The notes beneath the pieces are model-generated. The model worked only from the letters and a program-made list of their open reading frames with translations. It did no database searches and had not been told where the DNA came from. The translations under genes and the position numbers were made by a program. Of a stretch of DNA of 64,000 nt, positions 28,966-43,905 are shown one piece after another (position 1 is the stretch's first letter; each line of letters starts with the position of its first letter). This stretch comes from an uncultured Clostridia bacterium (GTDB lineage Bacteria > Bacillota > Clostridia > Christensenellales > UBA1242): contig CALWOV010000003.1 in NCBI GenBank assembly GCA_944383275.1, forward strand, positions 29,827 to 93,826, written 5' to 3'.

Positions 28966-28974
28966 AGTTTTCCC

Positions 28975-30010: not shown

Positions 30011-30042
30011 ATAAAATAAAAAAGGAACCATATGTGGTTCCC
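30011..30042 (-). terminator. Rho-independent terminator
   Basis: GGAACCACATATGGTTCC hairpin followed on the minus strand by TTTTTTATTTTAT, about 20 bp after the stop at 30063. Confidence 0.7.
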
Positions 30043-30062: not shown

Positions 30063-30866
30063 TTATTCAAAGTTTATTTGTGCTTTTTCTATATTATTTA
30101 ATTCATTGTTTTTATCGACAAAAACATCGTTTTGCTGGCAATTTTCTGCCTGCTTGTCAAAATTAACTAAACCATTTTCTGCAATAATACTGTTATTTTC
30201 TTCATTTGAATTTACAATGGTTTCAGTTATATAATTTTGATTTTCATTATTATTAATGCTCATAGAATAATCATTACTGTTTGCATTTTCTAATGAATTA
30301 TCATTTATAACTGTTTCAGTTAAACATTCAGAGTTCGTATTTACCTGACTTTGTTGTGCGTCATTAAATTCTTTAATTTCAGTTGTTAAGTTTTCTGTAT
30401 CTTTTTCAGCATTTTGATTTATATCGGTTATATTATCATTGTTTTCTAAATTTATATTTTCATTAGTAAAGTTGCTGTTTATTTCGTTTTCAACCATAAT
30501 ATTTTCTTCACTATTTTGGTTAATTTCATTGTATAAATTTATTTCAGCATTTTGCTCTGCACTGTTATTAACTATTGTATTTTCTGAATTGATAATGTTT
30601 TCAGTTTCACTTATATTGATATTTTCCATTTCTTCCTCACTTTTAATATTTTGATTTTCATTATTATTTTGCGTGGCATTAGGATATGTTAATATTCCAA
30701 GAACAACAAATATACCTAATACTGCATTAATAATTGACATATAAATTTCTTCATTTATATTAAGCCCTAAAGGTTTACCTATGGCTTGAACAAGCAAAAA
30801 GATGGCACTTGCAAGTGATAGCCAAAAACTGTAACTTTTCTTTTGTTCATTAAAATTAAACTTCAA
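30063..30866 (-). CDS. Membrane-anchored N/E-rich low-complexity protein
   Basis: Two N-terminal hydrophobic helices followed by about 190 aa of Asn/Glu/Ile-rich low-complexity sequence. Confidence 0.45.
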   Translation of the reverse strand: MKFNFNEQKKSYSFWLSLASAIFLLVQAIGKPLGLNINEEIYMSIINAVLGIFVVLGILTYPNATQNNNENQNIKSEEEMENINISETENIINSENTIVNNSAEQNAEINLYNEINQNSEENIMVENEINSNFTNENINLENNDNITDINQNAEKDTENLTTEIKEFNDAQQSQVNTNSECLTETVINDNSLENANSNDYSMSINNNENQNYITETIVNSNEENNSIIAENGLVNFDKQAENCQQNDVFVDKNNELNNIEKAQINFE

Positions 30867-31071: not shown

Positions 31072-31884
31072 TTATTTTCGTGTATTGTTCCAAGTTAAAA
31101 CATTGTTATACCAAGGTGTTCCGATTGTATCAATTAATTCTTGTTTACCACTGCTTAAAATAGACGCTGCTTCTGACTTGCTTTTTTGTGCTAAATAATT
31201 AATTAAAGTTACTGCCTTATGTTGTTGAACTTGGCTGTTTATGTTTGATAGTTCGTTGTTGATACTTTCATATGTATAAGCATTTGAATTGCTTTGTTCC
31301 ATTTCTTTTGTCAAACTTGCTATTTCATCGTTTAATTTTTTAGCATAAGCAATATCAAAATTTTCAAGAGCATTTTCTTTTTGTGTTTCAAGCAATTCTT
31401 TTTGGAATTGTAAAGAACTCATTTTTATATTATTTTCTTCTTGCAAATCTTGTAATTCAGATTGATAAGTTGAATTAATTTTGTTTAAAGTGTTATCAAA
31501 AATACTTGAATTTCTCCACCCTTTTTCAATAGAACCATAGTTTAAACTGTTTGTTGCATTAAGTTTTTCTGCATCTAAATCTTCGACATCGTCTTGATAG
31601 TCTTTTTGTGCTGTAGCAATTTTTTCATCTAATTTAACTTGTTTTTCGCCATATTTAGCTTCAATAGATTCAATATTGCTTGTTTTATATTGATTTAAAT
31701 TTTGTTCGGCTTGTGCTTTTATGTTGCTTGCTTGAGTGTCTAACTCGTTCTTTTTTGTTAACCATTCGTTAATTCTTGACTCATACATTTTGTCTATATT
31801 ATTAAATTCTTTTTGAATTTCAGAATTTATTGTAAGTTTAGGTAAAGAAGATGCTGAAACTGTTTTTTCAAATTTTTGTGCCAT
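31072..31884 (-). CDS. Coiled-coil structural protein (phage-like), unknown role
   Basis: Last gene of the cluster. The start at 31884 (MAQKFEK) is preferred because GGAGGTG lies 7 nt upstream; the longer ORF to 31980 overlaps the previous gene. Confidence 0.4.
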   Translation of the reverse strand: MAQKFEKTVSASSLPKLTINSEIQKEFNNIDKMYESRINEWLTKKNELDTQASNIKAQAEQNLNQYKTSNIESIEAKYGEKQVKLDEKIATAQKDYQDDVEDLDAEKLNATNSLNYGSIEKGWRNSSIFDNTLNKINSTYQSELQDLQEENNIKMSSLQFQKELLETQKENALENFDIAYAKKLNDEIASLTKEMEQSNSNAYTYESINNELSNINSQVQQHKAVTLINYLAQKSKSEAASILSSGKQELIDTIGTPWYNNVLTWNNTRK

Positions 31885-31957
31885 ATAAGCACCTCCATTT
31901 ATATAATAATTTTTATCATTTATTTGATTAATTAAAAATTTAACATAGTTTTGAGAA

Positions 31958-33529
31958 CTATATTTCGTCTTTAAAGGCATAGTTTAAAACCCCGTGTAAT
32001 CTTCTAAAATATGCATTTCTGCTTTCAAAAAAATATTGACCTTCTGTTACATATCTTTCCTTTGACACTTCTTTTGTATCTAAATTTAATTCTTTAGTGT
32101 AAATTCTTCCTACTCTTGAATAGTAAAATCTAACAATGTTATCAAACAGTGTTGCTGTTACATTTTTACCTGTTCCGATATAAAGTGCAGACTCGTAGGC
32201 AGGAGTTAAAAAGGAACTATTTGTTGGAGTGGTTATTGTGTTGTTATAACAAGGAAGAATATAGAATTTATCATTTTCCCCGTAAAACCCCGGAATACAA
32301 AAATAACCATATTTATTATCTTTAATATCAAAGACACTAAATGCACCATTAACTTCAGATAAACCTGTTGTTAAATACCCCCTGCTGGTTATCCTAGATG
32401 AGTTATCTGTTCCCATTGGAATGAACGACACTTTATCTTTGGTATCGTTTTTTATATGCGCAAACACAATACCCGCTATGTAATAACGATTTATATCATT
32501 GTCTGAGGTCTGTCCTATAGTTAAAGTTGTTCCATTCATTAAATAATCGTTGTAATTAAAGATTTCCACCCCAGTCCACCAATCCACTTTATAATCAGGG
32601 TCTATTGTTGATGTTTTAAACCAAAAACTTCCTAATCTTAAAAAATTGGTATTTGTTATAACCATTATTACAGGTCTTGAAAAATACTGTCCATTTGTAT
32701 CTTTTTCATAACTAGGAAAAATTTGAAAATGCTTTATTACAGTATTAGTTGGAATTAAAAAGAAACCTGATGCAGCTTTTAAATCTGTTTCATTAAGTTC
32801 TGTTTCTGTTTTGTTATTTTCGTCAACAAATCTATTTTCAGCATAACGAGGTCTATATTTCATAAGATAAACCCCATATCTATCTGATGGTATTTCTGTT
32901 AAATGTGTTGGCGATTTATATGCTGGGCAAACAAGTTCACCAAAGTTGTTTTCAAAGTTAAATGCTTCGTGTCCTATTAACTCGTAATGTAAATTTTCAA
33001 GCGAAAAACGAACATTTGTGTTATTTGAATCTTTTGTATAATGATAAGTTTTTAACTCTATTATTGATGGTGTAGAATTAGCAAAGAAATTATATTCAAA
33101 ACTATAAACATCAATGTTATCAGAAAAACTAAACGAATTTTCGTGAATTAATTTACTATCAAAATAAAACTCTACCTTCCCATCACCACTTTCACCAGAC
33201 ACATAACTTTTTATGTCATAAACCACTTTTAATCTTGCAACTGTTTCTTTTTTGACTTGTAGTTTTGCAACAAAATAAGTAGCATCGCTTGTAAGTCGTG
33301 CCTCAAAAAAATAGTTTGTAAACACTTGAACTATATCGTTATCTATTTTATTAAATATTTCAAAGTTTCGTTTATCACGCTTATCTAAAAAAATATTATT
33401 TTCTTGTAAAGAATTTATTTCTTTTTTTACTTTAATTATTTCATTATTATTAACTTCATTTACCTCTTCCATTTCATCTATAAGTTTTAACGCTTTATTT
33501 CCATCGGTATTTTTAAAATTATTTTGCAT
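31958..33529 (-). CDS. Phage-like structural protein (candidate tail, fibre or receptor-binding)
   Basis: 523 aa, beta-rich, aromatic/Asn-rich composition; position distal to the adaptor. Confidence 0.4.
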   Translation of the reverse strand: MQNNFKNTDGNKALKLIDEMEEVNEVNNNEIIKVKKEINSLQENNIFLDKRDKRNFEIFNKIDNDIVQVFTNYFFEARLTSDATYFVAKLQVKKETVARLKVVYDIKSYVSGESGDGKVEFYFDSKLIHENSFSFSDNIDVYSFEYNFFANSTPSIIELKTYHYTKDSNNTNVRFSLENLHYELIGHEAFNFENNFGELVCPAYKSPTHLTEIPSDRYGVYLMKYRPRYAENRFVDENNKTETELNETDLKAASGFFLIPTNTVIKHFQIFPSYEKDTNGQYFSRPVIMVITNTNFLRLGSFWFKTSTIDPDYKVDWWTGVEIFNYNDYLMNGTTLTIGQTSDNDINRYYIAGIVFAHIKNDTKDKVSFIPMGTDNSSRITSRGYLTTGLSEVNGAFSVFDIKDNKYGYFCIPGFYGENDKFYILPCYNNTITTPTNSSFLTPAYESALYIGTGKNVTATLFDNIVRFYYSRVGRIYTKELNLDTKEVSKERYVTEGQYFFESRNAYFRRLHGVLNYAFKDEI

Positions 33530-33532
33530 ATT

Positions 33533-35032
33533 TTAAACCAAATTTATTTCTAATTGAGGATTGGAAATATTGCAAGTATCATCTTCACTTATAAATGAAA
33601 TTGAAAAAAGTTTAGCCCTTAATGAAAGAGGTATTTTAATTGGTTTATTACTTCCCATTACCGAAAATTTATATTCTTTTTCTTCTTCTGTTTTAATAAT
33701 TACTGTTATATCACCTTTACTTAACAAGCATAAATTTCTTAAAACTTTGGTTTTATCTGGATAGCCCATATCTGTTTTTGGAGATGTCCATACCTTTTTA
33801 CTTACAGTGTCAAAAATTTTACCAGAATGTGTAAGTTCGCCTAATTTATTTTGATACTGCGTTTTAAAACACGCAACTAATTTACTTGTTTTGTCTATTT
33901 GAATAGGCCTTAGGGCGCAAATATCTACGCCACGCATAATTAAATATTCCCCAGAATTTATATCAAACTCTACTAATGCATTATTCTGATAGCCCTGTGT
34001 GGCTTCACAACCTATTTGCTGACCATCACCAAAATCTAGTTTACAAGCAAGGTAATATTTCCCATCTAAAAAACCACCAATTGCATTGCTGTTGTCAAAC
34101 TTTGTTATCATATCAACAAAGCCTGCATCAATTTTGCTAAAATTTATCCCATCAAATGAATATAGACCATCTCGACATAACATTAAAATTATATCTCCAC
34201 ATAAAATTGCAGATTTTTCATATATTCTTGAATTTGAAAGTGCTAAATGTTTTATTGTAAAATCGGTTTGTTCCCCATAACCTGACACTCTTGAAATACC
34301 AAATTCTCTTATAATGTAAAGATAATTTTTATAACTTATAACATTATTAAGCCCACCACGCTCGTCATTAATTTCTATGTAACCACCATCAAATTCGCTT
34401 ACATTCCAATTACACGGGTTTGTTTCATCAGAAAACCAAAGTTCATTTTTCATATTTCCAACTGTTGCAAAAAGCCTGTTTGCGTGAGTTGCCAAAGTGT
34501 TGATTTTGGGTGTGTCTGGATATGACACAGGGAAATTTTGCCCGTCCCACGCAGTTAGTTGGTCATTTTCGTTATTACTACAAAATACTATTCTGTTTCT
34601 GCCATCAATATACATATTTATGGCAACCGGTTCACTGTTAAAAGTTAGATTAAGCAATTCATAAAAATTGGTATCAGTTGTATACATTGGTGCCCAATAT
34701 AATTTCTTTTCACTAGTGTAAAAAACTAAAACAGGTTGAAATTCTTCATATGTTTTATTATAGTTATTAAAAAACCAAAAATTTTTTATTTCAGAAACCG
34801 TTGACGGAACTGACATTGTTTTTGTTACATCACCTACTGTTATTGTTAAGTCTTTAAAACCAAGACCATTTGTTAATGCACCAGAACTGAAATCATAGTT
34901 ATAAGTTTGCCTTGCTATGTTTAAAGGTAAAATATTTTGTTCCGTTTTAGTATCAACACCATTTAAAAAGTTTGAAAGTTTAACTTGCAAAACAGTATGT
35001 TCGTTTATAGGTAAAATATCACGATAAAACAC
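33533..35032 (-). CDS. Phage-like structural protein (candidate tail, nozzle or baseplate)
   Basis: The ORF is open to 35116, but AAGGAGGTG lies 8 nt before the GTG at 35032, which overlaps the upstream stop (TAGTG coupling); about 499 aa. Confidence 0.45.
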   Translation of the reverse strand: MFYRDILPINEHTVLQVKLSNFLNGVDTKTEQNILPLNIARQTYNYDFSSGALTNGLGFKDLTITVGDVTKTMSVPSTVSEIKNFWFFNNYNKTYEEFQPVLVFYTSEKKLYWAPMYTTDTNFYELLNLTFNSEPVAINMYIDGRNRIVFCSNNENDQLTAWDGQNFPVSYPDTPKINTLATHANRLFATVGNMKNELWFSDETNPCNWNVSEFDGGYIEINDERGGLNNVISYKNYLYIIREFGISRVSGYGEQTDFTIKHLALSNSRIYEKSAILCGDIILMLCRDGLYSFDGINFSKIDAGFVDMITKFDNSNAIGGFLDGKYYLACKLDFGDGQQIGCEATQGYQNNALVEFDINSGEYLIMRGVDICALRPIQIDKTSKLVACFKTQYQNKLGELTHSGKIFDTVSKKVWTSPKTDMGYPDKTKVLRNLCLLSKGDITVIIKTEEEKEYKFSVMGSNKPIKIPLSLRAKLFSISFISEDDTCNISNPQLEINLV

Positions 35033-35598
35033 TAGAACCACCTCCTTGGTGGCATTTTTACTCCACTTTTTTTGCGTTGTGCCACAAGCATACTTTGAGC
35101 AAACTTTGTGTCCCAAGCACTTGCATCAGAAAACAAACCTTTATAAAGGAAATATCTTGCAACAACGCCGTTAGCAAATGCATAGTCATCTATTTTATAA
35201 GACACATCTATTGTGTCTGTTAACTCTTCAATAAGCGCAGGAGCATAAGTGTATGTGATGATATAATTACCATTTGAACATTCAATAAAAGTTGGAAAAG
35301 TGTTATATTTTTGTTTTATTCCATTATTGTTTTTCACAGAAATTAGTTCTATTAAATTTTTTGATAAATCGGAAAAATTAAATTTATTATTAGAAATTGT
35401 TATATTTTCAGTTGTTTTCAATGGAATATACATAAAGGCTATTAAATGATTTACATCATTAATACAACTTATTATTTGATTTATTTGTGCTTGCTGGTCT
35501 TCTGTTGAAGTTGAAGTTCCACCAAGTTCTGTTATTTGCAAAAGGTTGTTTAAGTTTAAATGCTTGCACACTAGTTTTACTATATCTTTAACAATCAT
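35032..35598 (-). CDS. Candidate head-tail adaptor / connector protein
   Basis: 188 aa; lies after the capsid genes; N-terminus (IVKDIVKLVCKHLNL) resembles gp6-type connector starts; start at 35598 preceded by AAGGAGA. Confidence 0.4.
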   Translation of the reverse strand: MIVKDIVKLVCKHLNLNNLLQITELGGTSTSTEDQQAQINQIISCINDVNHLIAFMYIPLKTTENITISNNKFNFSDLSKNLIELISVKNNNGIKQKYNTFPTFIECSNGNYIITYTYAPALIEELTDTIDVSYKIDDYAFANGVVARYFLYKGLFSDASAWDTKFAQSMLVAQRKKSGVKMPPRRWF

Positions 35599-35609
35599 TT
35601 CTTCTCCTT

Positions 35610-35987
35610 TTAAACCCATCTATCTTTATAGGCATCATTAAAATTTACATCATTATTTTTCTTGTTTGCATAGTCATACATTTCTTTAAGTTTCCACCTT
35701 GCTTCATCATTTTGTACTCGTTTAATCTCTTGTTCTAGTTTTTCATTATGAATTTCCATTTCTTTTATTAATTTATCAGCATTTTCTCTTCTGGTTTTTC
35801 TAACATACGGAACCAGCCTTGCGTCAATTTTATTAAATGGAACAACCAAGCAAAAAGTTTGTTTTTGCCCTGAATTATGCACTTCATATCTTTGTTTATT
35901 TGTGTTATATACAATAAAATAGTTATTATCTATTGCTTTTAGTCTTGATAAAATATCAAAAACATCTGTTGTTATATTTACTAACAT
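35610..35987 (-). CDS. Hypothetical phage-like protein
   Basis: 125-aa ORF between the capsid and adaptor genes. Confidence 0.4.
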   Translation of the reverse strand: MLVNITTDVFDILSRLKAIDNNYFIVYNTNKQRYEVHNSGQKQTFCLVVPFNKIDARLVPYVRKTRRENADKLIKEMEIHNEKLEQEIKRVQNDEARWKLKEMYDYANKKNNDVNFNDAYKDRWV

Positions 35988-36002
35988 ATTACTTCCCTTT
36001 TA

Positions 36003-36031
36003 CAAATCAAGGGTGAGCAAAAGCCCACCCC
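36003..36031 (-). terminator. Terminator/attenuator-like hairpin after the capsid genes
   Basis: On the minus strand, GGGTGGGC-TTTT-GCTCACCC followed by TTGATTTGT, directly after the stop at 36040. Confidence 0.45.
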
Positions 36032-36039
36032 TGATAAAA

Positions 36040-37206
36040 TTAAGATGCAGTTATTGAAAGTTTGCCTTGTCCACCTGTTTTATCACAAATAAGTTCAGCA
36101 TATTTTACCAATGTTGCAGTGTGAATTGGGTATCCTTCTTTTTGTTTCAAAATTCTGCCGTTATCAGAACTTAACCATTCCCAATCACAAAGTTGATGAA
36201 TTTTAAAATCTTTACTGTTTAAAAAGTAAACTTCACCATCTTTAGCGAAACGGTCGGCAACAAAAGGAATACCATTGAATGATATGGTTTTATATCCACC
36301 CTCAAGATTTAAAATGTCAACATTTAATTTATTTGCTGAAAGTTTTTCTTGGTATAATCTTCTTGCATCAAGTGCACCCATTATGAAGTCTATTTCTGAA
36401 CCTTTTTGTTCAGACAATGTGTCTAGAACTTCCATAAAAGATGCTTCTGTAAAATTCGCTTTTGTAACAGATGCACTGTAAGGTTTTAAAAATGGATAAG
36501 TAGTAACCGAGTTACCATAAAGTGTTGCACCTTCAAAAATCGACTTTAAGCCTGTAATTTCTTTATCTTTACTTCCCTGCACATATAAAGATACAGTTTT
36601 TTGAGTGTTTGCCATATCTTCTGTTGCAGCATCACTTAAAGTTATTGTTTTTGTGCCGAAATCACAATTAAGAATTCTTGTTGTATGTGAATAAACGCCA
36701 TCTACATAAATATCAACCATCATTCCTATCATTAAATTTTTAATACTGTCAACTGTGAATGTATAAACATCTTTTGCTGAAGAATTTCCAGACGCTAAAA
36801 GCCCTGTTCCATCTCCGTAAAGCATTCTACTCATATTAAATTTGCTCGCTTCTATCATTCCTTCCATTTCGGCTGTAAGCAAATTTACAAAAGCACCAGC
36901 CTCTGACGAAGATGCACGCAAAGCCTTGTCTGAAAGTTCTATTGTTCCATAAAGGTTTTTTAGCGTAGAGGTTAGCAACAAGTAATTATTAAAGCCACTT
37001 AAAGGCAAAGCACCCACTTCTGTTCCTGCACCAATTCCACCATTAACACCATATGGAACTAATTTTTTTATCGCTTTTCCAACAACATCTTGGCTTGTTT
37101 TTTCAAGTTTTGACAAAAATGGGTGTGTTTTTGTGTTAAGTTGATTTGCTACAATACCAAGATACATAGTTTTAAGCGCTTCATTTGCTGTTTGTAATGT
37201 AACCAT
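36040..37206 (-). CDS. Major capsid protein paralog 2 (presumed HK97-fold)
   Basis: 388 aa, immediately after the scaffold and paralog 1. Shares N- and C-terminal blocks with paralog 1 (LKNLYGTIE, AGAFVNLLTAEMEG, SRMLYGDG, HQLCDWEW, LKQKEGY, TLVKYAEL). Confidence 0.65.
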   Translation of the reverse strand: MVTLQTANEALKTMYLGIVANQLNTKTHPFLSKLEKTSQDVVGKAIKKLVPYGVNGGIGAGTEVGALPLSGFNNYLLLTSTLKNLYGTIELSDKALRASSSEAGAFVNLLTAEMEGMIEASKFNMSRMLYGDGTGLLASGNSSAKDVYTFTVDSIKNLMIGMMVDIYVDGVYSHTTRILNCDFGTKTITLSDAATEDMANTQKTVSLYVQGSKDKEITGLKSIFEGATLYGNSVTTYPFLKPYSASVTKANFTEASFMEVLDTLSEQKGSEIDFIMGALDARRLYQEKLSANKLNVDILNLEGGYKTISFNGIPFVADRFAKDGEVYFLNSKDFKIHQLCDWEWLSSDNGRILKQKEGYPIHTATLVKYAELICDKTGGQGKLSITAS

Positions 37207-37224
37207 AAATTCCCCCTTTAAATT

Positions 37225-38403
37225 TTAAGATAAATTAGTAAGTTTAGCTTGTCCTGCTGGTTTTGAACACATAAGTTCGGCATATTTTACCAAGGTTGCA
37301 ATAAAACTTGCATAGCCTTCTTTTTGTTTTAAAACAGAACCATCTTCATTGCAAAGCCATTCCCAATCGCAAAGTTGATGCATTGCAAAATCATTTGTGT
37401 TTAATAGATACATTGTTCCAGATGGAATAAATTTATCACTTATCATAGGAATTCCATTGAAACTTAAAGTTCTATAGCCACCTTGTAAATTCAATGGTTC
37501 TAAGTTTGCTCGTTTTTCCATTAAAAGTGATGCGAATTTGCGTTTTAATGCACTTGTTGTTGCAATAAAGTTTATTTCATTGCCCGTGCGTTCAAGCACT
37601 GTATCTATTGCAGTTTGAATGTATATATCGTTAAATGTATCACTTGTGGTTTTAGATTTTGTATAAGCGTTTATCCAAGGATAAGATGTTCTATTTACAC
37701 CGTAAATTGAACCTGTAGTTTCGAATATTTTTTCGATACCTGTTAATTCTTGGTCTTTACTGTTTTGCATATAAACTTTGTAACTAGATGCCGATGTTGC
37801 AAATTCGGTTGTAACAACAGTTGATAAAGTTATTTTTTTACTTGCTCTATCAATGCTTGCAATTCGAACTCCACAAAAACCAGAAACTTTAGAAGTGCCA
37901 TTATAAAAATCGATAACCATACCTTCTAAAAGTTTGCTAACATCGTCAACTGTAATTTCATTTTTTGATACATTTGCAGAAGATACAGAGCAAAGACAAC
38001 CACTGCCATCACCATATAACATTCTGCTTAAATTAAACTTACTTGCTTCAAGCAAACCTTCCATTTCGGCTGTAAGCAAGTTTACAAAAGCACCAGCATC
38101 ATCTATTGATGCACGCATTGCTTTATCTGAAATCTCTATTGTTCCATAAAGATTTTTTAGTGTTGATGTAAACAACATATATTTATTTTCTGCACTTTTA
38201 GGTAGAATACCACCTTCATCACCAGCGCCAACACCACCATTAACACCATATGGCGCAAGTTTTTGAATTTCTCTGCCATAAACATCAGAAGTTGTTTGTT
38301 TTATCTGGTTATAAAGTGCATTTGTGTTTGTGTTTAACTGATTACTTACAACGCCAAGATATACATCTTTTAAAGCGTTTTCAGCAGTTTGCATTGTTAC
38401 CAT
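37225..38403 (-). CDS. Major capsid protein paralog 1 (presumed HK97-fold)
   Basis: 392 aa, directly downstream of the scaffold gene; size and position typical of an MCP; conserved blocks shared with paralog 2. Confidence 0.65.
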   Translation of the reverse strand: MVTMQTAENALKDVYLGVVSNQLNTNTNALYNQIKQTTSDVYGREIQKLAPYGVNGGVGAGDEGGILPKSAENKYMLFTSTLKNLYGTIEISDKAMRASIDDAGAFVNLLTAEMEGLLEASKFNLSRMLYGDGSGCLCSVSSANVSKNEITVDDVSKLLEGMVIDFYNGTSKVSGFCGVRIASIDRASKKITLSTVVTTEFATSASSYKVYMQNSKDQELTGIEKIFETTGSIYGVNRTSYPWINAYTKSKTTSDTFNDIYIQTAIDTVLERTGNEINFIATTSALKRKFASLLMEKRANLEPLNLQGGYRTLSFNGIPMISDKFIPSGTMYLLNTNDFAMHQLCDWEWLCNEDGSVLKQKEGYASFIATLVKYAELMCSKPAGQAKLTNLS

Positions 38404-38414
38404 ATATAAAACTC

Positions 38415-39137
38415 CTATTTACTAAAGATTTTTTTTGCCAGTTCTTTTGCTTCTTCAAGTGTAGTTGCTGATTTGATTTGATTTTCAAAATTAACTCCAT
38501 TATTTGAATTTATAAAAGTTGGCACATTAGGTTTTGTGCTGTTAACTTGTTTTAAATAATCTTTTATAACAGCATCACGAACTTTGTTGTTTTTTAACAC
38601 TTGATTAAAATTAGTTTCACTTTCCAAATAATTCTGGTTATTAACAAGTTGCTGTTCTAGAAATTTTAACCAAGCATTATGCAAGGGGTTTTGACTTTCT
38701 GCAATAACCTTATCTTGCAAAATTAGATTAGAGAGTTCTTTTGCATATTCTTTTGCGCGTGGATTTTCTTGCAAGAAATTTTCTACATAACCTTTCCATT
38801 CCTTTTTATCAAATAAATTATTTGTAGATGCCCCTTGCATTTCTTCTTGTTTTTGTAAACTAGACAAAAGTTGACTTTTGCGAGTGAACTCTTTTTCTAA
38901 ATTTTCATAAGCATTTTTTAAAGATTCAACATCTTTAAATTTTCCTAATGGAGAACCATCGGGTAATGGTTGCTCTCCTGTTTTTTCTTTTATATTGCTA
39001 TTATTTAGTGCATTTTCTATGTTTTTTAAAGAATTTTTATCTTGTTCTATGATATTTGGTTTTAAATTTATATTTTTAATATTTAAGTTATTTTCATTTT
39101 GTAAACTTAAATTTGGTGTATTTTCAACAATTTCCAT
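38415..39137 (-). CDS. Candidate scaffolding protein
   Basis: 240 aa, acidic, helical and low-complexity; lies between portal and capsid. Confidence 0.5.
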   Translation of the reverse strand: MEIVENTPNLSLQNENNLNIKNINLKPNIIEQDKNSLKNIENALNNSNIKEKTGEQPLPDGSPLGKFKDVESLKNAYENLEKEFTRKSQLLSSLQKQEEMQGASTNNLFDKKEWKGYVENFLQENPRAKEYAKELSNLILQDKVIAESQNPLHNAWLKFLEQQLVNNQNYLESETNFNQVLKNNKVRDAVIKDYLKQVNSTKPNVPTFINSNNGVNFENQIKSATTLEEAKELAKKIFSK

Positions 39138-39148
39138 AAAAAATTCTC

Positions 39149-41038
39149 CTAATTTTCAAAAACTTTATTTGCTTCTTGTTCTAGTTTTTTAAACTGTTTA
39201 TGTTCCCTTATATGTTTCAAAAGCATATCTTTTAATTCGGCATTTTCTTTACACGCTTTTTCGAAATCTCCACTTAACATAAAATTTATGTGTTCATTAA
39301 TATGTAAATCGTGATTATGAATTTCTAAAACTTCACATTCCTTTTTATTTAAAAACTCAATATTTTCGCGCTTTGCTTTCTGAATTTGTAAAGTGTTTTG
39401 GTCAAGAGCATCTTCCCACATTCCAAACCCAAGCATTTCCAATGTCTTGCTTCTTAATGAATTAGACATCTTTCCGTTCTCATCTAAAAGCAATCCGGAA
39501 TTTAAAAGTTCAAAAACCATATTTCTTTTTTGAGCCACAGTTTGACCAAGTTCAGATTCTGTTTCAAAAGCAATTTCATCTGACGATATATTTCCCCTGT
39601 CCCAATAAAAGAACTCGCTTGCACCGTTTTGCCCAACCACTCGCCCCATTCGATTAGTTGTTGCAAATTGTTTATATAATCTTAATATTTGTTGGGCAAC
39701 CATTTTTAAAGCAAAACAAATATATTCTCCACTTGCAGAAATTCTAGCCTCTTCTTGTTCAATTAAAATTTGCAATGCAACTCCACTCATACTACTTATA
39801 TTTGTTGAACCACCAAGCAAATCACTAACCCCACTTACAGTTATAAATTCACTTTCAAGTCTTTGCTCTTCTTCGGTAAAGTTTGCAGGAACAGAATCCG
39901 TTGCTAATATTTTAGGAGTATTTGAACCTTGTCTGTAAACCAAAACTTTTCCAGGACTTAACCCCTCTTCCTCCAACTCATCAATATCTATAGAGCCATC
40001 TTCTACGGTTAAAATTCCCATAGACAGCCGGTTAATAAATTCGTGTTTCCTATTTTTTATTGCGTTATAAGCGCGTTGAACAGGTATCATTCTTTCTATA
40101 ACACTTCCCCCCCAAAACAAAGATGGTTGTTCAATAGAAATTTGTCGCACAAAAGGAAAACCTCGTTCCCCATATTTTAAATTTTTATAAGGTAATTCAC
40201 CATCGAACACAAGTTTATCACCAGCAACAATAACCAATCTTCCATTTGGGAATTTTTTACTAGGTTCTTCATATCTTTCTATAACCATAGCAGAATCTTT
40301 TTGTTTAGTTTTTTGAAATTTTGAAATATATAATTGATTATCAACAAAGCCATCTGCCTGGACGCTTGACAAAGTGTAGATATCTAAATCTTCGCCTTCA
40401 AGTTTTATACCCCAAACTTTTTCTATTGTATCTACCGAAAAGGGTTTTGCGTGTATTATACTTTTACAATAATTTATATCTGCACTTCCGTTACTGTCTG
40501 GATATATTTCAAATGGAGAACAAACCATAACATCTACATCACCTTCATAGATTCGTTCACCATATGGCGTTATTCCAACAACAGAACCCGAACTGTTATT
40601 CCAAACTATTTTATAAAATGCCGTTCCACAAATTTCACTCCATCTAGTTGCTTGAGAAATTAATTTACTCATATCAAGTTTATTAGATATTGATTGCAAA
40701 ATATTTTTACTAACTTTTGCATTACTTAAATCATCTTCATCAGAACTTGCTGGAAGAACTGTCATGGTTGGTCTTACTTTTGCAAGTTTTGCAATTCTAC
40801 TTTCTAATATTGGTGCTATATGATTGTAAACTTGTTTTTCTTCCCAAAAATATTTTTTATCAATTTCGTTTTGTATTTGACTTTGTGTTACTTCACAATA
40901 CTGATTTCCTAAAACAAAATTTAAGTTTAATTGCCATTGTGTTTCAAAAGGTTTTCGTGCTTCATGCCTTTTTTTAAAATCATTCCAAACATCTTCAACT
41001 AACTCTTTTTCATAATCTTTTTTATTTGTGTTTTTCAT
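39149..41038 (-). CDS. Phage portal protein
   Basis: 629 aa; N-terminal pattern RKPFETQWQLNLNFVLGNQY is typical of portals; lies after the terminase. Confidence 0.8.
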   Translation of the reverse strand: MKNTNKKDYEKELVEDVWNDFKKRHEARKPFETQWQLNLNFVLGNQYCEVTQSQIQNEIDKKYFWEEKQVYNHIAPILESRIAKLAKVRPTMTVLPASSDEDDLSNAKVSKNILQSISNKLDMSKLISQATRWSEICGTAFYKIVWNNSSGSVVGITPYGERIYEGDVDVMVCSPFEIYPDSNGSADINYCKSIIHAKPFSVDTIEKVWGIKLEGEDLDIYTLSSVQADGFVDNQLYISKFQKTKQKDSAMVIERYEEPSKKFPNGRLVIVAGDKLVFDGELPYKNLKYGERGFPFVRQISIEQPSLFWGGSVIERMIPVQRAYNAIKNRKHEFINRLSMGILTVEDGSIDIDELEEEGLSPGKVLVYRQGSNTPKILATDSVPANFTEEEQRLESEFITVSGVSDLLGGSTNISSMSGVALQILIEQEEARISASGEYICFALKMVAQQILRLYKQFATTNRMGRVVGQNGASEFFYWDRGNISSDEIAFETESELGQTVAQKRNMVFELLNSGLLLDENGKMSNSLRSKTLEMLGFGMWEDALDQNTLQIQKAKRENIEFLNKKECEVLEIHNHDLHINEHINFMLSGDFEKACKENAELKDMLLKHIREHKQFKKLEQEANKVFEN

Positions 41039-41176
41039 ATTTATCTCCTTAAATTTTTTAATATTAAAACAGCAAAATATGCTGATTGTTTTTAATAAAT
41101 TGATTAAATTTTATTATTTTTAATGCTTTTTATTGTTTTATTATAAATTTTTATCTTTAATTATGATATTTGATAT

Positions 41177-41467
41177 TTACTTTAAAAGCTTTAAAAGTCG
41201 TTGTTTTTCGTTTTCCAATTCTTCATCTGTATAATTTTTATAATCTTTATTTTTATCCCAGAACAGTTCAAGCAATGCTCGTGCTGCTGGTATATCTGGT
41301 GGTATATGTTTTTTTGTAACTTTTCTTTTAGTTAATGTAAGATTATCCTCATCTGTTTTTGCATATTCTTCAACAATTTCATCAACCGAATATCCCATTG
41401 CTTTTTTTAATAATGCTTTAGTTAATTCTTTATTTTCTTTATCATCTTTCAACTTATCATTACTCAT
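41177..41467 (-). CDS. Small DNA-packaging accessory protein (possible small terminase-like)
   Basis: 96 aa, charged, with an HTH-like segment (KAMGYSVDEIVEEY) and an IPPDIPAARALLEL motif; overlaps the TerL stop; unusually downstream of TerL. Confidence 0.35.
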   Translation of the reverse strand: MSNDKLKDDKENKELTKALLKKAMGYSVDEIVEEYAKTDEDNLTLTKRKVTKKHIPPDIPAARALLELFWDKNKDYKNYTDEELENEKQRLLKLLK

Positions 41468-42938
41468 AGTCTTCTCCGTTGAACAACTTTTCTATTTTGT
41501 TTTTTAATCTTAGTCTATATCTATTTTGTTTGGAAATTAATTTATCTTTATGTTTTTGTATGCTTGTTTTTATGGTTGCAATTTTAGGAACTTCAGGTCT
41601 TGACATAACATAATATCTTAATTCATCTAAAGCGTGGTCATCTTTTTTTATTGGAGCATCATCGTTACCCCACCAATATGCTTTAATTTCTCTTATTAAG
41701 TTTACACAATTTTTAAAAATGAAAAGTTTTGTTACGCCATCGCTAGAACGCAATAAACTTTTCACTCTTGATATTCCTGAAAACAAATCTTTATTAACAT
41801 TGGTATTCACATTAATTCCATATTCATAAAACAACTCTGCCACACTTTTACTGCTTGCTAAAGTTTTTTGGTTTGCGGCAGAATCTATTAACGCCGAGAT
41901 TTTTCCATTAAAAGTTTTCCATTTAAGTTTTTTACAAATTTCTTTTATACAAATTGAATGTTCTTCAACCGTTTTGTTTGAAGCATAATGTTCGGCAATT
42001 ACATAAATATTTCCATCATAATCAACAGCATACCAATGCGCACTTAATGGGTTATGAAGGCCTGGGTCGATTGAAATATTATCATACCAATCAATAGGAA
42101 CTTCGAATGGTTCTATAACGTGAATTGCTGGGTCAAACTCGTTATAAACCATTCCACCATGCCCAACAAATTTTCCATACCTTCTACTATCCAACTCATC
42201 TTCAGACAATAACCTTGACATCTCTTCAATTTCATTTTTATCAAGATAAGGGTTATCTGCCCATTCCATATTTATCGTCCAAATTTGTGGGTCTTGTTTT
42301 TTGTTTAAATATATTTCTTCATAAACCCAAGTTAAGCCTTTAAGTGGTGTCATCGTTCCAAATATTTCACCTTTTCTATCTAGAACACGCATTTTACATT
42401 CAAGATAAATATCATAGGGTGGTTCTTCGTCAAACCAAACAAAATCTAAACTTGTTCCTTGAAATTTTTCTCTACCTTGGTCGCAACTTTTAAATGCTAT
42501 TTTACTTAAACTTCCAAAAACATTTCTTATTAATATATAGTCAATTACACCATTTTCTGGGTCATCTTTTCTTCCTGACAACATAATTATTTCGACTATC
42601 CAATCGGGATTTAAAAAGGATAAAATTTTCTGTTGAGCAACATCTCGTTGAACCTGTGTGCTAAGCGATACTACCCAGCAACTTATTGGTTTGTTTTTTC
42701 TAAACGGGTGATTTCCTCTTGCAAGCCAAACGGTTTCTGCTGCACCGCACTGACTTTTACCACTTCGGTTTCCACCAAATACCCACCTATTTTTTGATAA
42801 GCATTTATGAAATTCGATTTGCTTTAAATGAATTTTATCACCAGTGTTATAGTTTTTCATTCGGTCATTATTGATTCTGCGTTGCTGTTCATTTTCAATT
42901 TTTTTTATTTCTAAAACTATGTTGTTTAAGTCATACAT
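41460..42938 (-). CDS. terL: Phage terminase large subunit
   Basis: Walker A GGNRSGKS, Walker B LDFVWFDEEP, C-terminal RNaseH-like nuclease region (SIDPG ... DDHALDELRY); RBS AAGGAGAA. Confidence 0.9.
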   Translation of the reverse strand: MYDLNNIVLEIKKIENEQQRRINNDRMKNYNTGDKIHLKQIEFHKCLSKNRWVFGGNRSGKSQCGAAETVWLARGNHPFRKNKPISCWVVSLSTQVQRDVAQQKILSFLNPDWIVEIIMLSGRKDDPENGVIDYILIRNVFGSLSKIAFKSCDQGREKFQGTSLDFVWFDEEPPYDIYLECKMRVLDRKGEIFGTMTPLKGLTWVYEEIYLNKKQDPQIWTINMEWADNPYLDKNEIEEMSRLLSEDELDSRRYGKFVGHGGMVYNEFDPAIHVIEPFEVPIDWYDNISIDPGLHNPLSAHWYAVDYDGNIYVIAEHYASNKTVEEHSICIKEICKKLKWKTFNGKISALIDSAANQKTLASSKSVAELFYEYGINVNTNVNKDLFSGISRVKSLLRSSDGVTKLFIFKNCVNLIREIKAYWWGNDDAPIKKDDHALDELRYYVMSRPEVPKIATIKTSIQKHKDKLISKQNRYRLRLKNKIEKLFNGEDYE

Positions 42939-43020: not shown

Positions 43021-43056
43021 AAACAATAATTGCACATGAAAGCACAATTATTGTTT
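43021..43056. promoter_or_regulatory. 12-bp-stem inverted repeat between terL and the divergent gene
   Basis: AAACAATAATTG-N12-CAATTATTGTTT. On the minus strand it is followed by TTTATTGC (terminator-like), about 85-120 nt upstream of the terL start. Confidence 0.4.
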
Positions 43057-43905
43057 GATAAAATTAAACAAGGTGATATTATGATAAAAGTTTTAGTTTT
43101 TGTTTTATTTTTATTATTTTGTATGCCAACACAATATGGCGTGGTGAATGCTGAAGAATTATATACCCCTTCTTATTATAGAATTGAAAGTTCTAACTGT
43201 TTATTATATCGCACAGAACAAGATAATCAAGATATTTCAAATGTTTGGTTTTTATTACCCAAAACATATTTTGTTCAAGTTCTAGATGAAAGTGATGAAC
43301 TGTTTTTTAAAGTTAAGTATCAAGATTTTATAGGTTATGTTTTTAAAACAGATGTTTCAGCTGTTTATGAAACGCCACAATATCCTTGGGCTGATAATTT
43401 AACTTTTGATATAAATGGAACAGCAAATGTTGTTATTCGTTCAGCACCGTCAAGTGATAGTGCATATTTAGGGCTAATTCCATTTAATGCAACAAGTGTT
43501 ACTTATCACGGAAGCATTGTTGGAGATGAAGCACTAAGTGGGCTTGGCAATTCTTGGTATTTTGCGACTTACACAAGTTTTGAACAAGGAATTATAAGTG
43601 GTTATGTTTATGCGCCTTTAACTCAAAATTTAACAGTAATTCAAGATAATACTGAAGTTCTTAGCACAGTAAAGCCATCTAGTGGAAGTGAAATCATTGA
43701 TGAAGTTATTTCGCCAGAACTGCAAAATGGTCAAAATTTATTGATTATTGGTTTATTAAGTTTAGTTGGAATTGCTATTTTACTTTTACTGTTTAGACCA
43801 AAACGCAAATCAAAAAAAGCAAAGCAAAGCGTTAAAGGAACACAACTAAATCAATCAAATAACAATAAACAATTTTTAACATTTGATGAAAGTGATAATT
43901 TTTGA
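43030..43905 (+). CDS. Secreted, C-terminally membrane-anchored protein with two SH3b-like domains
   Basis: Probable start at 43081 (MIKVLVFVLF signal peptide). Two SH3b-like segments, a C-terminal TM helix and a basic tail (RPKRKSKKAK). Confidence 0.5.
   Translation: MHMKAQLLFDKIKQGDIMIKVLVFVLFLLFCMPTQYGVVNAEELYTPSYYRIESSNCLLYRTEQDNQDISNVWFLLPKTYFVQVLDESDELFFKVKYQDFIGYVFKTDVSAVYETPQYPWADNLTFDINGTANVVIRSAPSSDSAYLGLIPFNATSVTYHGSIVGDEALSGLGNSWYFATYTSFEQGIISGYVYAPLTQNLTVIQDNTEVLSTVKPSSGSEIIDEVISPELQNGQNLLIIGLLSLVGIAILLLLFRPKRKSKKAKQSVKGTQLNQSNNNKQFLTFDESDNF

What the first reader, a model, noticed from the sequence alone, without database searches (positions are those of the whole stretch)
31072..42938. 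Compact phage head, packaging and adaptor cluster with no integrase, replication, immunity or lysis genes: candidate domesticated particle (PBSX- or GTA-like)
Eleven colinear, translationally coupled genes span about 12 kb: TerL, a 96-aa protein, portal, scaffold, two MCPs, a 125-aa protein, an adaptor, proteins of about 499 and 523 aa, and a coiled-coil protein. I can recognise no recombinase, repressor/antirepressor, DNA replication gene, tape-measure or tail-tube gene, holin or endolysin within the cluster or 10 kb either side. Core genes flank the region (RNase J on one side, parC/parE on the other). The content is smaller than any autonomous tailed phage module. It resembles the structure-only loci of gene transfer agents and defective phage-like particles.
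Basis: inference. Interest (0 to 1): 0.7.

Follow-up and report, generated by a model that had tools for sequence, protein, structure and literature searches.

The report
Domesticated short-tailed phage particle genes
A 13-kb operon that builds a phage head and a short tail, but has no genes to replicate or integrate, sits among housekeeping genes, is inherited with the chromosome in hundreds of gut Clostridia species, and is probably a gene-transfer-agent-like particle of the kind recently shown in Faecalibacterium.

Summary
The cluster is real. Eleven tightly spaced minus-strand genes (42938 to 31072) encode TerL, a small-terminase remnant, a P22-type portal, a scaffold, two paralogous capsid proteins, a small protein, a probable adaptor, a tail nozzle (AlphaFold pLDDT 89; best Foldseek hits are podovirus nozzles), a hypervariable 523-aa protein and a coiled-coil protein.

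A holin-like gene and a strong terminator end the operon. A sigma-like regulator lies upstream. The missing tape measure and tail tube simply reflect a short-tailed design.

The domestication reading holds. At least 597 species-level genomes carry the capsid gene. In the 80 loci fetched, the genes are intact, often in the same chromosomal context (PdaB-SSB ... RNase J). They diverge in step with RNase J (r about 0.85), match host GC from 28 to 52% (r = 0.94), and have dN/dS of 0.02-0.3.

Gene order is colinear with operon I of FpGTA, the podovirus-like GTA-like element of Faecalibacterium (Nat Commun 2026). That paper also saw GTA-type DNA packaging in Christensenellaceae without finding the genes.

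Verdict: a new member of a known kind. Particle production and DNA transfer are untested.

The parts
44863..46773 (+). 636-aa protein with a hydrophobic N-terminus (probable signal peptide) and a C-terminal membrane anchor. Its sequence is highly variable, but a protein of about 600 aa holds this position in many related loci. Possible accessory or neighbour; role unknown.
   Evidence: No family hit. A same-sized protein with a hydrophobic N-terminus and C-terminal TM sits at this position in many loci. Only 3 loci give a tblastn hit.
43906..44460 (-). 184-aa sigma-70 region-4/ECF-like protein. Candidate transcriptional activator of the operon.
   Evidence: Sigma70_r4_2 1.1e-4; phrog_36 transcriptional regulator 7e-12 and phrog_1740 sigma factor 1.3e-5; TIGR02937 1.9e-5. 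All NCBIfam and Pfam scores are below the curated cut-offs. Found upstream of TerL in 18 loci by tblastn and by position in more.
43030..43905 (+). SH3-domain protein with a hydrophobic N-terminus (probable signal peptide) and a C-terminal anchor, transcribed divergently from TerL. A conserved neighbour of unknown role.
   Evidence: SH3_3 1.4e-5, below cut-off. tblastn hits in 27 loci, always on the opposite strand directly upstream of TerL.
43021..43056 (-). 15-bp-stem hairpin followed by a T-run, about 85 nt upstream of the TerL start codon. Candidate leader terminator or operator.
   Evidence: terminator scan; sequence. The stem is conserved and the loop varies in L005, L006 and L007. By my reading of the upstream sequences, analogous hairpin-plus-T-run elements lie upstream of TerL in L018, L025, L046/L048 and L055.
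41460..42938 (-). Large terminase (TerL): packaging ATPase plus nuclease.
   Evidence: Terminase_6N 1.5e-15 and phrog_2 1.6e-29. Walker A, Walker B, the TMTPLKG coupling motif and the nuclease Asp motifs are at least 95% conserved in 41 species. dN/dS about 0.06.
41177..41467 (-). 96-aa remnant of a small terminase (TerS). It matches only an internal stretch of the TerS profile and has no recognisable DNA-binding part.
   Evidence: phrog_309 TerS 1.9e-5, matching profile positions 195-239 of 319. 17 of 25 family members hit phrog_309, best 1e-7. Conserved in 67 loci at about 49% identity.
39149..41038 (-). Portal protein, P22/SU10 type.
   Evidence: PF16510 2.7e-22 and phrog_156 4.5e-37. Present in 53 of 53 loci that have enough flank.
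38415..39137 (-). Probable scaffolding protein (240 aa).
   Evidence: Assigned by position only, between portal and MCP. No family hit. Fast-evolving but present in 71 loci.
37225..38403 (-). Major capsid protein, copy 1.
   Evidence: NF033394 capsid_maj_Podo 2.3e-69; phrog_14242 2.3e-54. More than 6394 homologues.
36040..37206 (-). Major capsid protein, copy 2. A paralogue 51% identical to copy 1, and a duplication specific to this lineage.
   Evidence: The duplication is seen only in the window clade (L002-L007, L035), where both copies stay intact at 51-69% identity to their window counterparts in L005-L007 and L035.
35610..35987 (-). 125-aa conserved protein of unknown role (head completion or connector candidate).
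   Evidence: No significant family or PDB hit. Conserved in 67 loci at about 43% identity. It occupies the position of the small unknown protein RCH50848 in FpGTA I.
35032..35598 (-). 188-aa probable head-to-tail adaptor.
   Evidence: Assigned by position only, immediately before the nozzle gene. It corresponds to the FpGTA I 'Adaptor' RCH50847. No sequence-level hit. Conserved in 63 loci.
33533..35032 (-). Tail nozzle (hub) protein, 499 aa, with a beta-propeller fold.
   Evidence: AF2 model pLDDT 88.9, pTM 0.88. Foldseek versus PDB: Pa223 tail 9nwi_Y E 9e-22, TM 0.72; VP1 8zkk_O TM 0.74; GP4; SU10; P22 gp10 8eap_D; T7 tail-complex entries. A weak profile hit to the SU10 tail chain 7z47_G.
31958..33529 (-). 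523-aa hypervariable protein. Candidate receptor-binding or fibre protein.
   Evidence: Only 2 homologues among 5.8 billion proteins. In relatives, the slot after the nozzle gene holds unrelated 340-600-aa proteins. The AF2 model is unusable (pLDDT 47).
31072..31980 (-). 302-aa coiled-coil protein (DUF7934). Virion-associated candidate.
   Evidence: PF25588 1.9e-13. The family is present in 25 loci. It occupies the position of the abundant particle protein RCH50844 ('TolA') of FpGTA I.
30063..30866 (-). Holin-like protein: an N-terminal phiLC3-type holin domain (about the first 70-100 residues) plus a long Asn/Glu-rich tail.
   Evidence: Phage_holin_1 6.6e-6; phrog_297 7.3e-10; TIGR01598 1.2e-5, below cut-off. 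Relatives carry holin-like ORFs at this position, mostly 73-146 aa.
30023..30042 (-). Intrinsic terminator that ends the operon.
   Evidence: 8-bp stem with 4 GC pairs, followed by TTTTTATTTT. It is the top-listed terminator-like site in the scan of 27.9-47.1 kb.

Best explanation
This is a chromosomally fixed, vertically inherited gene set derived from a short-tailed (P22/SU10-like) phage. It makes DNA-filled particles for the host, so it is a gene-transfer-agent-like 'viriform' of the FpGTA type.

Proposed mechanism (inferred, except where a step is marked as shown):
1. A host signal acts through the adjacent sigma-like protein (43906-44460) and/or the leader hairpin. It switches on one transcript that runs from TerL (42938) to the holin gene and stops at the terminator at 30042-30023.
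2. Portal, scaffold and capsid protein(s) assemble procapsids.
3. TerL has intact ATPase and nuclease motifs (shown). With a TerS remnant that lacks a recognisable DNA-binding part (shown), it fills heads with whatever chromosomal DNA is at hand.
4. The adaptor and the nozzle (fold shown) close the portal and form a stub tail. The hypervariable 523-aa protein and the coiled-coil protein add receptor binding and/or a plug or decoration.
5. The holin, with a lysin encoded elsewhere, releases the particles from a lysing subpopulation.

The vertical inheritance under purifying selection is shown. Particle formation, random packaging and delivery are inferred by analogy with FpGTA.
For: (1) Parts: TerL, portal and MCP are supported by family searches. 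The nozzle is supported by structure, the TerS remnant, and the holin plus terminator.

(2) There are no integrase, replication or immunity genes in 19.6-58.4 kb. The rest of the window is housekeeping.

(3) Breadth: more than 6394 MCP homologues were found, many on contigs of 0.1-1 Mb. At least 597 GTDB species genomes carry a relative.

(4) Recurring context: in many species at about 50% amino-acid identity the order is PdaB-SSB-[about 600-aa surface protein]-sigma-SH3-TerL...nozzle-[variable]-holin-membrane protein-RNase J-OMT-U32. RNase J lies downstream in 22 of 46 loci with enough flank, and SSB upstream in 16 of 43.

(5) ORFs are full length across species. TerL catalytic motifs are at least 95% conserved in 41 species.

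(6) Co-divergence: pairwise identities of MCP, portal and TerL correlate with those of RNase J (Pearson 0.84-0.86). MCP is more conserved than RNase J (66% against 52%).

(7) Cluster GC follows flank GC from 28 to 52% (r = 0.94, n = 17).

(8) dN/dS is 0.02-0.3, similar to RNase J at 0.06-0.08.

(9) Gene order is colinear with FpGTA operon I: TerL, portal, X, MCP, small unknown, adaptor, nozzle (PDB 8eap), X, abundant coiled-coil protein.

(10) FpGTA makes roughly 40-nm particles carrying about 9 kb of host DNA. The same study saw GTA-type packaging of 4-7 kb fragments in Christensenellaceae MAGs without finding the genes.

(11) Phage relatives on long viral contigs carry extra structural genes, so this set is pared down.
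Against: - There is no direct evidence of particles, packaged DNA or transfer for this cluster.
- No endolysin is present in the window.
- Minimal relatives have no large protein after the nozzle gene (L018, L029, L034), so a receptor-binding protein is missing or encoded elsewhere.
- 19 of 60 loci have no TerL within 3-7 kb, and those loci sit in a different context (ABC transporter ... ComEC). The locus is therefore not fixed across the whole family.
- How universal the cluster is within the host clade could not be measured.
- The MCP matches NCBIfam capsid_maj_Podo, whereas the FpGTA MCP is named 'N4-gp56 family'. Orthology with FpGTA is therefore unproven.
- The nearest cultured phages with this MCP family have genomes of about 45 kb. 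A small head that cannot hold the 13-kb operon is assumed, not shown.
Confidence: 0.6

Rival explanations
1. The cluster makes a domesticated particle that the host does not use for gene delivery. It could be a PBSX-like killing or lysis particle, or a device for releasing DNA. DNA would be packaged but not productively injected.
For: All the domestication evidence applies equally. Supporting points:
- A holin gene sits in the operon.
- Several relatives have no recognisable receptor-binding protein.
- The authors of the FpGTA paper themselves leave this option open for FpGTA.
Against: - The short-tail design has no contractile sheath or puncturing apparatus; only adaptor and nozzle genes are present.
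- TerL with strictly conserved ATPase and nuclease motifs, plus the portal, argue that DNA packaging itself is under selection.
- The hypervariable slot after the nozzle gene suggests selection on target recognition.
Confidence: 0.22
2. The cluster is a cryptic remnant of a temperate podophage family that repeatedly integrates at the same chromosomal site. It would be decaying rather than being kept by the host.
For: - IMG/VR lists 66 fragments carrying this cluster as viral.
- True phage relatives exist (L133, L146, L140).
- Two or more chromosomal contexts are seen.
Against: - No integrase, att site or tRNA is present.
- ORFs are intact in nearly all of the 80 species loci.
- dN/dS is far below 1.
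- GC is ameliorated to the host over a 24-point range.
- Divergence tracks the adjacent RNase J gene.
- The same pared-down gene set recurs, rather than random deletion variants.
Confidence: 0.06
3. The cluster is a capsid-forming phage satellite (cf-PICI-like). It would build its own heads and borrow the remaining functions from a helper phage.
For: The element is small and encodes TerL, portal and capsid genes with a transcriptional activator upstream. A 2026 preprint notes that such candidates can be confused with GTAs.
Against: - There is no integrase, excisionase or replication/primase gene anywhere in the window.
- It encodes its own nozzle and probable adaptor, i.e. a tail.
- It is vertically inherited and ameliorated.
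Confidence: 0.03

Closest known systems
FpGTA of Faecalibacterium prausnitzii (operon I of about 10.5 kb plus operon II of about 5.5 kb; Nat Commun 2026, PMC12946183)
   Same: - Both are podovirus-derived and sit in a core-genome location with no integrase or replication genes.
- Gene order is the same: TerL, portal, small protein, MCP, small unknown, adaptor, nozzle (P22 gp10-like, PDB 8eap), one further gene, then a coiled-coil protein.
- In both, the TerS-like protein has no obvious DNA-binding domain.
- Both occur in gut Clostridia.
   Different: - The host clade differs: MAGs labelled Clostridia or Christensenella-like, against Oscillospirales.
- The MCP falls in NCBIfam capsid_maj_Podo, with no hit to the N4-gp56 family named for RCH50849.
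- The TerS remnant lies after TerL here, not before it.
- No gene is named Prp-like between portal and MCP.
- The holin gene is in the same operon here, whereas FpGTA has it in operon II.
- This lineage has two MCP paralogues.
- A sigma-like regulator and an SH3 membrane protein are conserved upstream.
- Direct sequence comparison with the RCH50844-RCH50853 proteins was not possible with these tools.
RcGTA-type gene transfer agents of Alphaproteobacteria
   Same: - Phage-derived head and tail cluster with no replication or integration genes.
- Vertical inheritance under purifying selection and GC matching the host.
- A TerS without a recognisable DNA-binding part.
- Some lineages appear to keep parts at other loci (TerL is missing from 19 of 60 loci).
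   Different: - RcGTA is siphovirus-like, with a tape measure, tail tube and HK97-type protease. This cluster has a P22-type portal and a nozzle with no long tail.
- The two are unrelated in sequence.
- Regulation differs: a sigma-like protein here, against CtrA/GafA in RcGTA (from established knowledge).
PBSX (Bacillus subtilis defective phage-like particle)
   Same: A chromosomal, Firmicute, phage-derived particle locus without replication functions. PBSX packages 13-kb host fragments.
   Different: PBSX is a myovirus-like element of roughly 28 kb with a contractile tail and its own repressor and lysis cassette (from established knowledge). No sheath, tube or baseplate genes are present here. 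The only sequence link is a sub-threshold TerL hit to TIGR01547.
Short-tailed phages with the same capsid and portal families (Microbacterium phage Shocker, Arthrobacter phage Jasmine group; SU10/P22-type tails)
   Same: MCP is 24-27% identical and the portal 22-23% identical over the full length. The nozzle has the fold seen in Pa223, VP1, GP4, SU10, P22 and T7 tail complexes.
   Different: Those are autonomous genomes of about 45 kb with DNA polymerase, primase/helicase, endolysins and a very large (1,743-aa) hypothetical protein in the late region. None of these is present here.

Membership tests
Gene transfer agent / viriform (general definition, PMC9662315) | Tailed-phage structural genes reside in the cellular chromosome and evolve in concert with the host (vertical inheritance, purifying selection). 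| tested here: met
   Recurring synteny; co-divergence with RNase J, r about 0.85; GC tracking, r = 0.94; dN/dS 0.02-0.3; intact ORFs.
Gene transfer agent / viriform (general definition, PMC9662315) | No genes for autonomous replication, integration or excision. | tested here: met
   None found in 19.6-58.4 kb. The rest of the window is housekeeping (only the 25 most frequent of 49 families are listed).
Gene transfer agent / viriform (general definition, PMC9662315) | Particles package essentially random host DNA and at most part of their own locus. | not testable with these tools
   Needs sequencing of nuclease-protected DNA. Indirect support only: the TerS remnant lacks a DNA-binding part, and GTA-type packaging of 4-7 kb was reported for Christensenellaceae MAGs.
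Gene transfer agent / viriform (general definition, PMC9662315) | Particles deliver DNA to recipient cells. | not testable with these tools
   Needs a transfer assay. Nozzle and probable adaptor genes are present. The receptor-binding candidate is hypervariable.
FpGTA-type podovirus-like GTA-like element | Operon architecture TerL-portal-X-MCP-small-adaptor-nozzle-X-coiled-coil. | tested here: met
   Window gene order compared with RCH50852 down to RCH50844 and their annotated functions.
FpGTA-type podovirus-like GTA-like element | Sequence homology of the proteins to RCH50844-RCH50853. | tested here: inconclusive
   The FpGTA sequences could not be fetched. Names differ (N4-gp56 family against capsid_maj_Podo), and the window MCPs show no TIGR04387 hit at E <= 0.01.
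FpGTA-type podovirus-like GTA-like element | A second locus with fibre/RBP, holin and endolysin. | not testable with these tools
   Only the 64-kb window is held. Here a holin gene is in cis and no endolysin is present.
Autonomous temperate P22/SU10-like podovirus (prophage) | Integrase with att sites, immunity, replication and complete lysis modules contiguous with the structural genes. | tested here: not met
   Compare the full phage Shocker.
Capsid-forming PICI (phage satellite) | Integrase, a replication (primase/rep) module and helper dependence, with no tail genes of its own. | tested here: not met
   No int or rep gene. It has its own nozzle.
PBSX-like defective myovirus | Contractile tail sheath, tube, baseplate and tape measure. 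| tested here: not met
   No such families were hit in any cluster protein. The tail is of the nozzle type.

The most novel reading that the evidence does not exclude
This cluster and FpGTA could be two branches of one ancient podovirus domestication, or of a recurrent domestication of one phage lineage, spanning several orders of gut Clostridia. That would make it the most widespread GTA family outside Alphaproteobacteria and the unidentified source of the GTA-type DNA packaging seen in Christensenellaceae. A further possibility is that the hypervariable protein after the nozzle and the hypervariable surface protein of about 600 aa upstream form a co-evolving ligand-receptor pair that restricts transfer to kin.
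Probability: 0.3. Interest if true: 0.85.

Novelty: new member of a known kind. Interest (0 to 1): 0.7.

Why it matters
Very few GTA-like elements are known outside Alphaproteobacteria. The first podovirus-like one, and the first found in the human gut microbiome, was reported only in 2026, and in a single genus. That study saw random chromosomal DNA in virus-like particles from Christensenellaceae and other Clostridia but could not name the genes responsible.

This cluster is a concrete candidate that can be searched for by sequence. It is present in at least 597 species-level genomes of gut and rumen Clostridia and is kept under selection as strong as that on an essential RNase.

If it is active, capsid-mediated gene exchange would be a built-in and ancient trait of a large part of the gut microbiota. 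It would also produce 'viral' signals in viromes that are not viruses: IMG/VR already lists 66 such fragments. The cluster further offers a natural minimal podovirus particle, about ten genes, for structural and engineering work.

Tried and rejected
- Profile searches of the 125-aa, 188-aa, 302-aa and 96-aa families and of the MCP family against PDB sequences gave nothing significant.
- hhalign of the 188-aa and nozzle families against single phage proteins (Shocker gp32 and gp33, an L133 ORF) was uninformative, with probability below 1%.
Only the nozzle had a deep usable alignment among the unassigned proteins.
- The 523-aa protein folded with 3 sequences gave pLDDT 47 and was discarded. The adaptor could therefore not be tested by structure.
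- A search for a shared promoter motif upstream of TerL in 42 loci found only AT-rich k-mers and a patchy TTTGTC-like element, so no conclusion was drawn. Sigma-70-type promoter matches are no more frequent than in shuffled sequence.
- A listing of cluster members look-up of ten distant MCP representatives returned no organism names. The taxonomic span beyond the record titles remains unknown.
- NCBI organism labels on several MAGs (Corallococcus, Acidiphilium, Spirochaetales, Subdoligranulum) are implausible for this gene context and were not used.
- Rejected readings: an encapsulin (portal and TerL are present) and a phi29-like mini-phage (no protein-primed polymerase).

Full report
**1. What is in the window**

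The window has about 30% G+C and no tRNA genes. Eleven ORFs run head to tail on the minus strand from 42938 to 31072. Spacing is tight: TerL and the 96-aa ORF overlap by 8 nt, four gaps are 11-18 nt, the gap after the second capsid gene is 52 nt, the 188-aa and 499-aa ORFs share one base, and the next gap is 3 nt. The only larger gap is 138 nt, before the portal gene.

Family searches identify the following:
- a large terminase (Terminase_6N 1.5e-15; phrog_2 1.6e-29);
- a P22-type portal (PF16510 2.7e-22; a weak hit to the SU10 portal);
- two paralogous major capsid proteins (phrog_14242 2e-54 and 1e-52; NCBIfam NF033394 capsid_maj_Podo 2e-69 and 3e-66; 51% identical to each other).

The flanks are housekeeping genes. 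On one side lie RNase J, an O-methyltransferase, a U32 peptidase, plsX and rnc. The remaining ORFs of the window are also housekeeping, including the dnaK operon, lepA, smc and ftsY. I found no integrase, repressor or replication gene.

**2.

- The 499-aa protein gave a confident AlphaFold model from 50 homologues (pLDDT 88.9, pTM 0.88). Its best Foldseek matches in the PDB are all podovirus tail nozzle or hub chains: Pa223 (E 9e-22, TM 0.72), VP1 (TM 0.74), GP4, SU10, P22 gp10 (8eap_D), PhiM1 and T7 tail complexes. The element therefore does encode a tail, of the short type. The absence of a tape measure and tail tube is expected and is not a sign of loss.
- The ORF 205 nt downstream (30063-30866) begins with a phiLC3-type holin domain. 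The top-listed terminator-like hairpin in the scanned region follows it at 30042-30023. The transcription unit therefore runs from TerL to the holin gene, about 12.9 kb.
- A sigma-70 region-4/ECF-like protein (43906-44460) lies upstream on the operon strand. Its Pfam and NCBIfam scores are all below the curated cut-offs.
- The 96-aa protein is a small-terminase remnant. 17 of 25 family members match phrog_309 (TerS), and only at profile positions of about 195-239 out of 319.
- The 'scaffold' (240 aa) and 'adaptor' (188 aa) labels remain inferences from gene position.

**3. Relatives: breadth and gene order**

The capsid protein has more than 6394 homologues in the 5.8-billion-protein set. The top 120 are at least 52% identical, and many lie on contigs of 0.1-1 Mb named 'Clostridia bacterium'. 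A profile search against 50%-identity representatives gives 3957 clusters at E <= 1e-3 and 665 at E <= 1e-30.

I fetched 80 loci. They are gut, rumen and caecal MAGs labelled Clostridia, Christensenella or Christensenellaceae, with G+C of 26-60%.

tblastn of all window proteins against these loci shows the same gene order from TerL to the nozzle gene. In many loci the same chromosomal context also recurs: PdaB-SSB-[about 600-aa protein with a hydrophobic N-terminus and C-terminal anchor, opposite strand]-sigma-like-[about 250-aa SH3 membrane protein, opposite strand]-TerL...nozzle-[variable]-small holin-like ORFs-membrane protein-RNase J-OMT-U32.
- RNase J lies within reach in 22 of 46 loci with enough downstream sequence.
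- SSB lies upstream in 16 of 43 loci with enough upstream sequence.
- A second context exists (for example L020): the cluster starts at the TerS remnant, no TerL lies within 7 kb, and the flanks are an ABC transporter and ComEC.
- Overall, TerL is adjacent in 36 of 60 loci, separated by an insertion in 5, and not found within 3-7 kb in 19.

**4. Tests of domestication**

- ORFs are full length in nearly all species: MCP is 382-420 aa in 82 of 83 loci, the nozzle 462-534 aa in 60 of 60, and TerL about 470-500 aa in 43 of 46.
- In TerL, Walker A, Walker B, the coupling motif and the three nuclease Asp motifs are at least 95% conserved in 41 species.
- Across 20 species, pairwise identities of MCP, portal and TerL correlate with those of the adjacent RNase J (Pearson 0.86, 0.86 and 0.84). 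MCP is more conserved than RNase J (mean 66% against 52%).
- Cluster G+C follows flank G+C from 28 to 52% (r = 0.94, n = 17).
- Nei-Gojobori dN/dS in close species pairs is far below 1. For L046/L048 it is 0.06 for TerL, 0.03 for portal, 0.02 for MCP and 0.085 for the nozzle. For L011/L015 the values are 0.06, 0.07, 0.11 and 0.12, against 0.08 for RNase J.

**5. The variable part of the cluster**

The 523-aa protein has only two homologues (98% and 41% identity) among 5.8 billion proteins. In other species, the slot after the nozzle gene holds unrelated proteins of 340-600 aa, or nothing. This pattern fits a receptor-binding protein, but the three-sequence model was unusable (pLDDT 47).

The 302-aa coiled-coil protein (DUF7934, 1.9e-13) recurs in 25 loci. 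The capsid gene duplication is confined to the window's own clade, where both copies stay intact.

**6. Phage relatives**

The nearest cultured phages are short-tailed actinobacterial phages of about 45 kb. Examples are Microbacterium phage Shocker and the Arthrobacter phage Jasmine group, with MCP 24-27% and portal 22-23% identical. They have full replication and lysis modules.

IMG/VR holds 66 fragments with the cluster. Most are short pieces with the same gene set. One comes from an isolate genome (L135). A few distant relatives lie on long viral contigs (L133, L146, L140, L149). L133 and L146 carry about 5 kb of extra genes between the capsid and nozzle genes; in L133 these and nearby ORFs include an Ig-domain protein and a Hoc-like decoration protein. 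The chromosomal set is a pared-down version of these.

**7. Comparison with the literature**

The searchable library contains one study of a podovirus-like GTA-like element, FpGTA of Faecalibacterium prausnitzii (PMC12946183). Its operon I has ten ORFs and includes a putative TerS without an obvious DNA-binding domain.

The proteomics table of that paper gives this order: TerL (RCH50852), portal (50851), a small protein (50850), MCP (50849), a small unknown (50848), adaptor (50847), tail nozzle matched to PDB 8eap (50846), one further gene, and an abundant coiled-coil protein annotated 'TolA' (50844).

The window cluster is colinear with this, and its nozzle matches the same PDB entry.

Differences:
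- the FpGTA MCP is named 'N4-gp56 family', whereas ours is capsid_maj_Podo with no hit to the N4-gp56 model at E <= 0.01;
- the TerS remnant lies after TerL here;
- the holin gene is in cis here, whereas FpGTA has it in a second operon 125 kb away, together with RBP and endolysin genes.

FpGTA particles are roughly 40-nm heads carrying about 9 kb of host DNA. The same study recorded GTA-type packaging of 4-7 kb fragments for the Christensenellaceae MAGs HGM11616 and QANA01 without finding the responsible genes. A 2026 preprint reports further GTA candidates in other gut Clostridia, but not this cluster.

**8. Conclusion**

The evidence shows a phage-derived head and short-tail operon that has been kept under purifying selection and inherited vertically across a large and deep clade of gut Clostridia.

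The evidence does not show that it makes particles, that the particles carry random host DNA, or that they deliver it. These steps rest on the close architectural parallel with FpGTA and on the intact packaging enzyme.

I put 0.6 on the GTA-like reading and about 0.2 on a particle with a role other than gene delivery. The remainder is split between prophage remnant, satellite and other readings. The cluster is a new member of a recently recognised kind. It is a strong, directly testable candidate for the unexplained capsid-packaged bacterial DNA from Christensenellaceae-like bacteria in gut viromes.

Noticed in passing
window 36040-38403 (also L005, L006, L007, L035): The capsid gene is tandemly duplicated only in the window's own clade. 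The two copies are 51% identical to each other, and each is conserved at 51-69% identity in L005-L007 and L035, so both appear to be kept. One copy may have specialised, for example as the penton protein, as gp24 has relative to gp23 in T4.
   Followed up: partly
window 43021-43056 (minus strand); L005, L006, L007 upstream of TerL: A 15-bp-stem hairpin followed by a T-run lies about 85 nt upstream of the TerL start, inside the divergent TerL/SH3 intergenic region. The stem is conserved and the loop differs in relatives whose capsid protein is 65-68% identical. By my reading of the sequences, similar terminator-like hairpins precede TerL in L018, L025, L046/L048 and L055. It could be a leader attenuator or an operator.
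   Followed up: partly
window 43030-43905 and 44863-46773; the same positions in many loci: Two opposite-strand genes for proteins with a hydrophobic N-terminus (probable signal peptide) and a C-terminal membrane anchor bracket the sigma-like gene. One is an SH3-domain protein of about 250 aa, the other a protein of about 600 aa. Their positions are conserved, but the 600-aa protein is almost as variable as the protein after the nozzle. A receptor or sensing role is possible but untested.
   Followed up: partly
L020 18263-20371 (and the L022, L036, L051, L060 group): In the sub-lineage that lacks an adjacent TerL, the cluster is followed by two unknown proteins (about 400 and 700 aa). In L020 these are followed by a ComEC competence channel gene (PF03772 5e-47). 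This is suggestive, because RcGTA DNA uptake uses ComEC, but it may be coincidence.
   Followed up: no
window 28015-29793: Two multi-pass membrane proteins (316 and 272 aa) with no family assignment lie between the operon terminator and RNase J. The 316-aa protein is conserved next to RNase J in 26 loci, and its divergence tracks RNase J most closely (r = 0.92). It is probably a host gene rather than part of the element.
   Followed up: partly
window 30063-30866: The holin-like protein carries an Asn/Glu-rich low-complexity tail of about 190 residues. This tail is absent from most relatives, whose holin-like ORFs at this position are mostly 73-146 aa.
   Followed up: no
IMG/VR loci L085-L150: IMG/VR lists 66 fragments of this chromosomal cluster as viral genomes. 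If the element is a domesticated particle, these entries are false 'viruses' and could inflate virome counts for gut Clostridia.
   Followed up: partly
window 47001-47726: The SSB next to the element is a 241-aa two-domain form (NF004476, 4e-89). It also matches a phage protein family of unknown function (phrog_26861, 5e-30). It is conserved upstream of the cluster in 17 loci and was treated here as a host gene.
   Followed up: no
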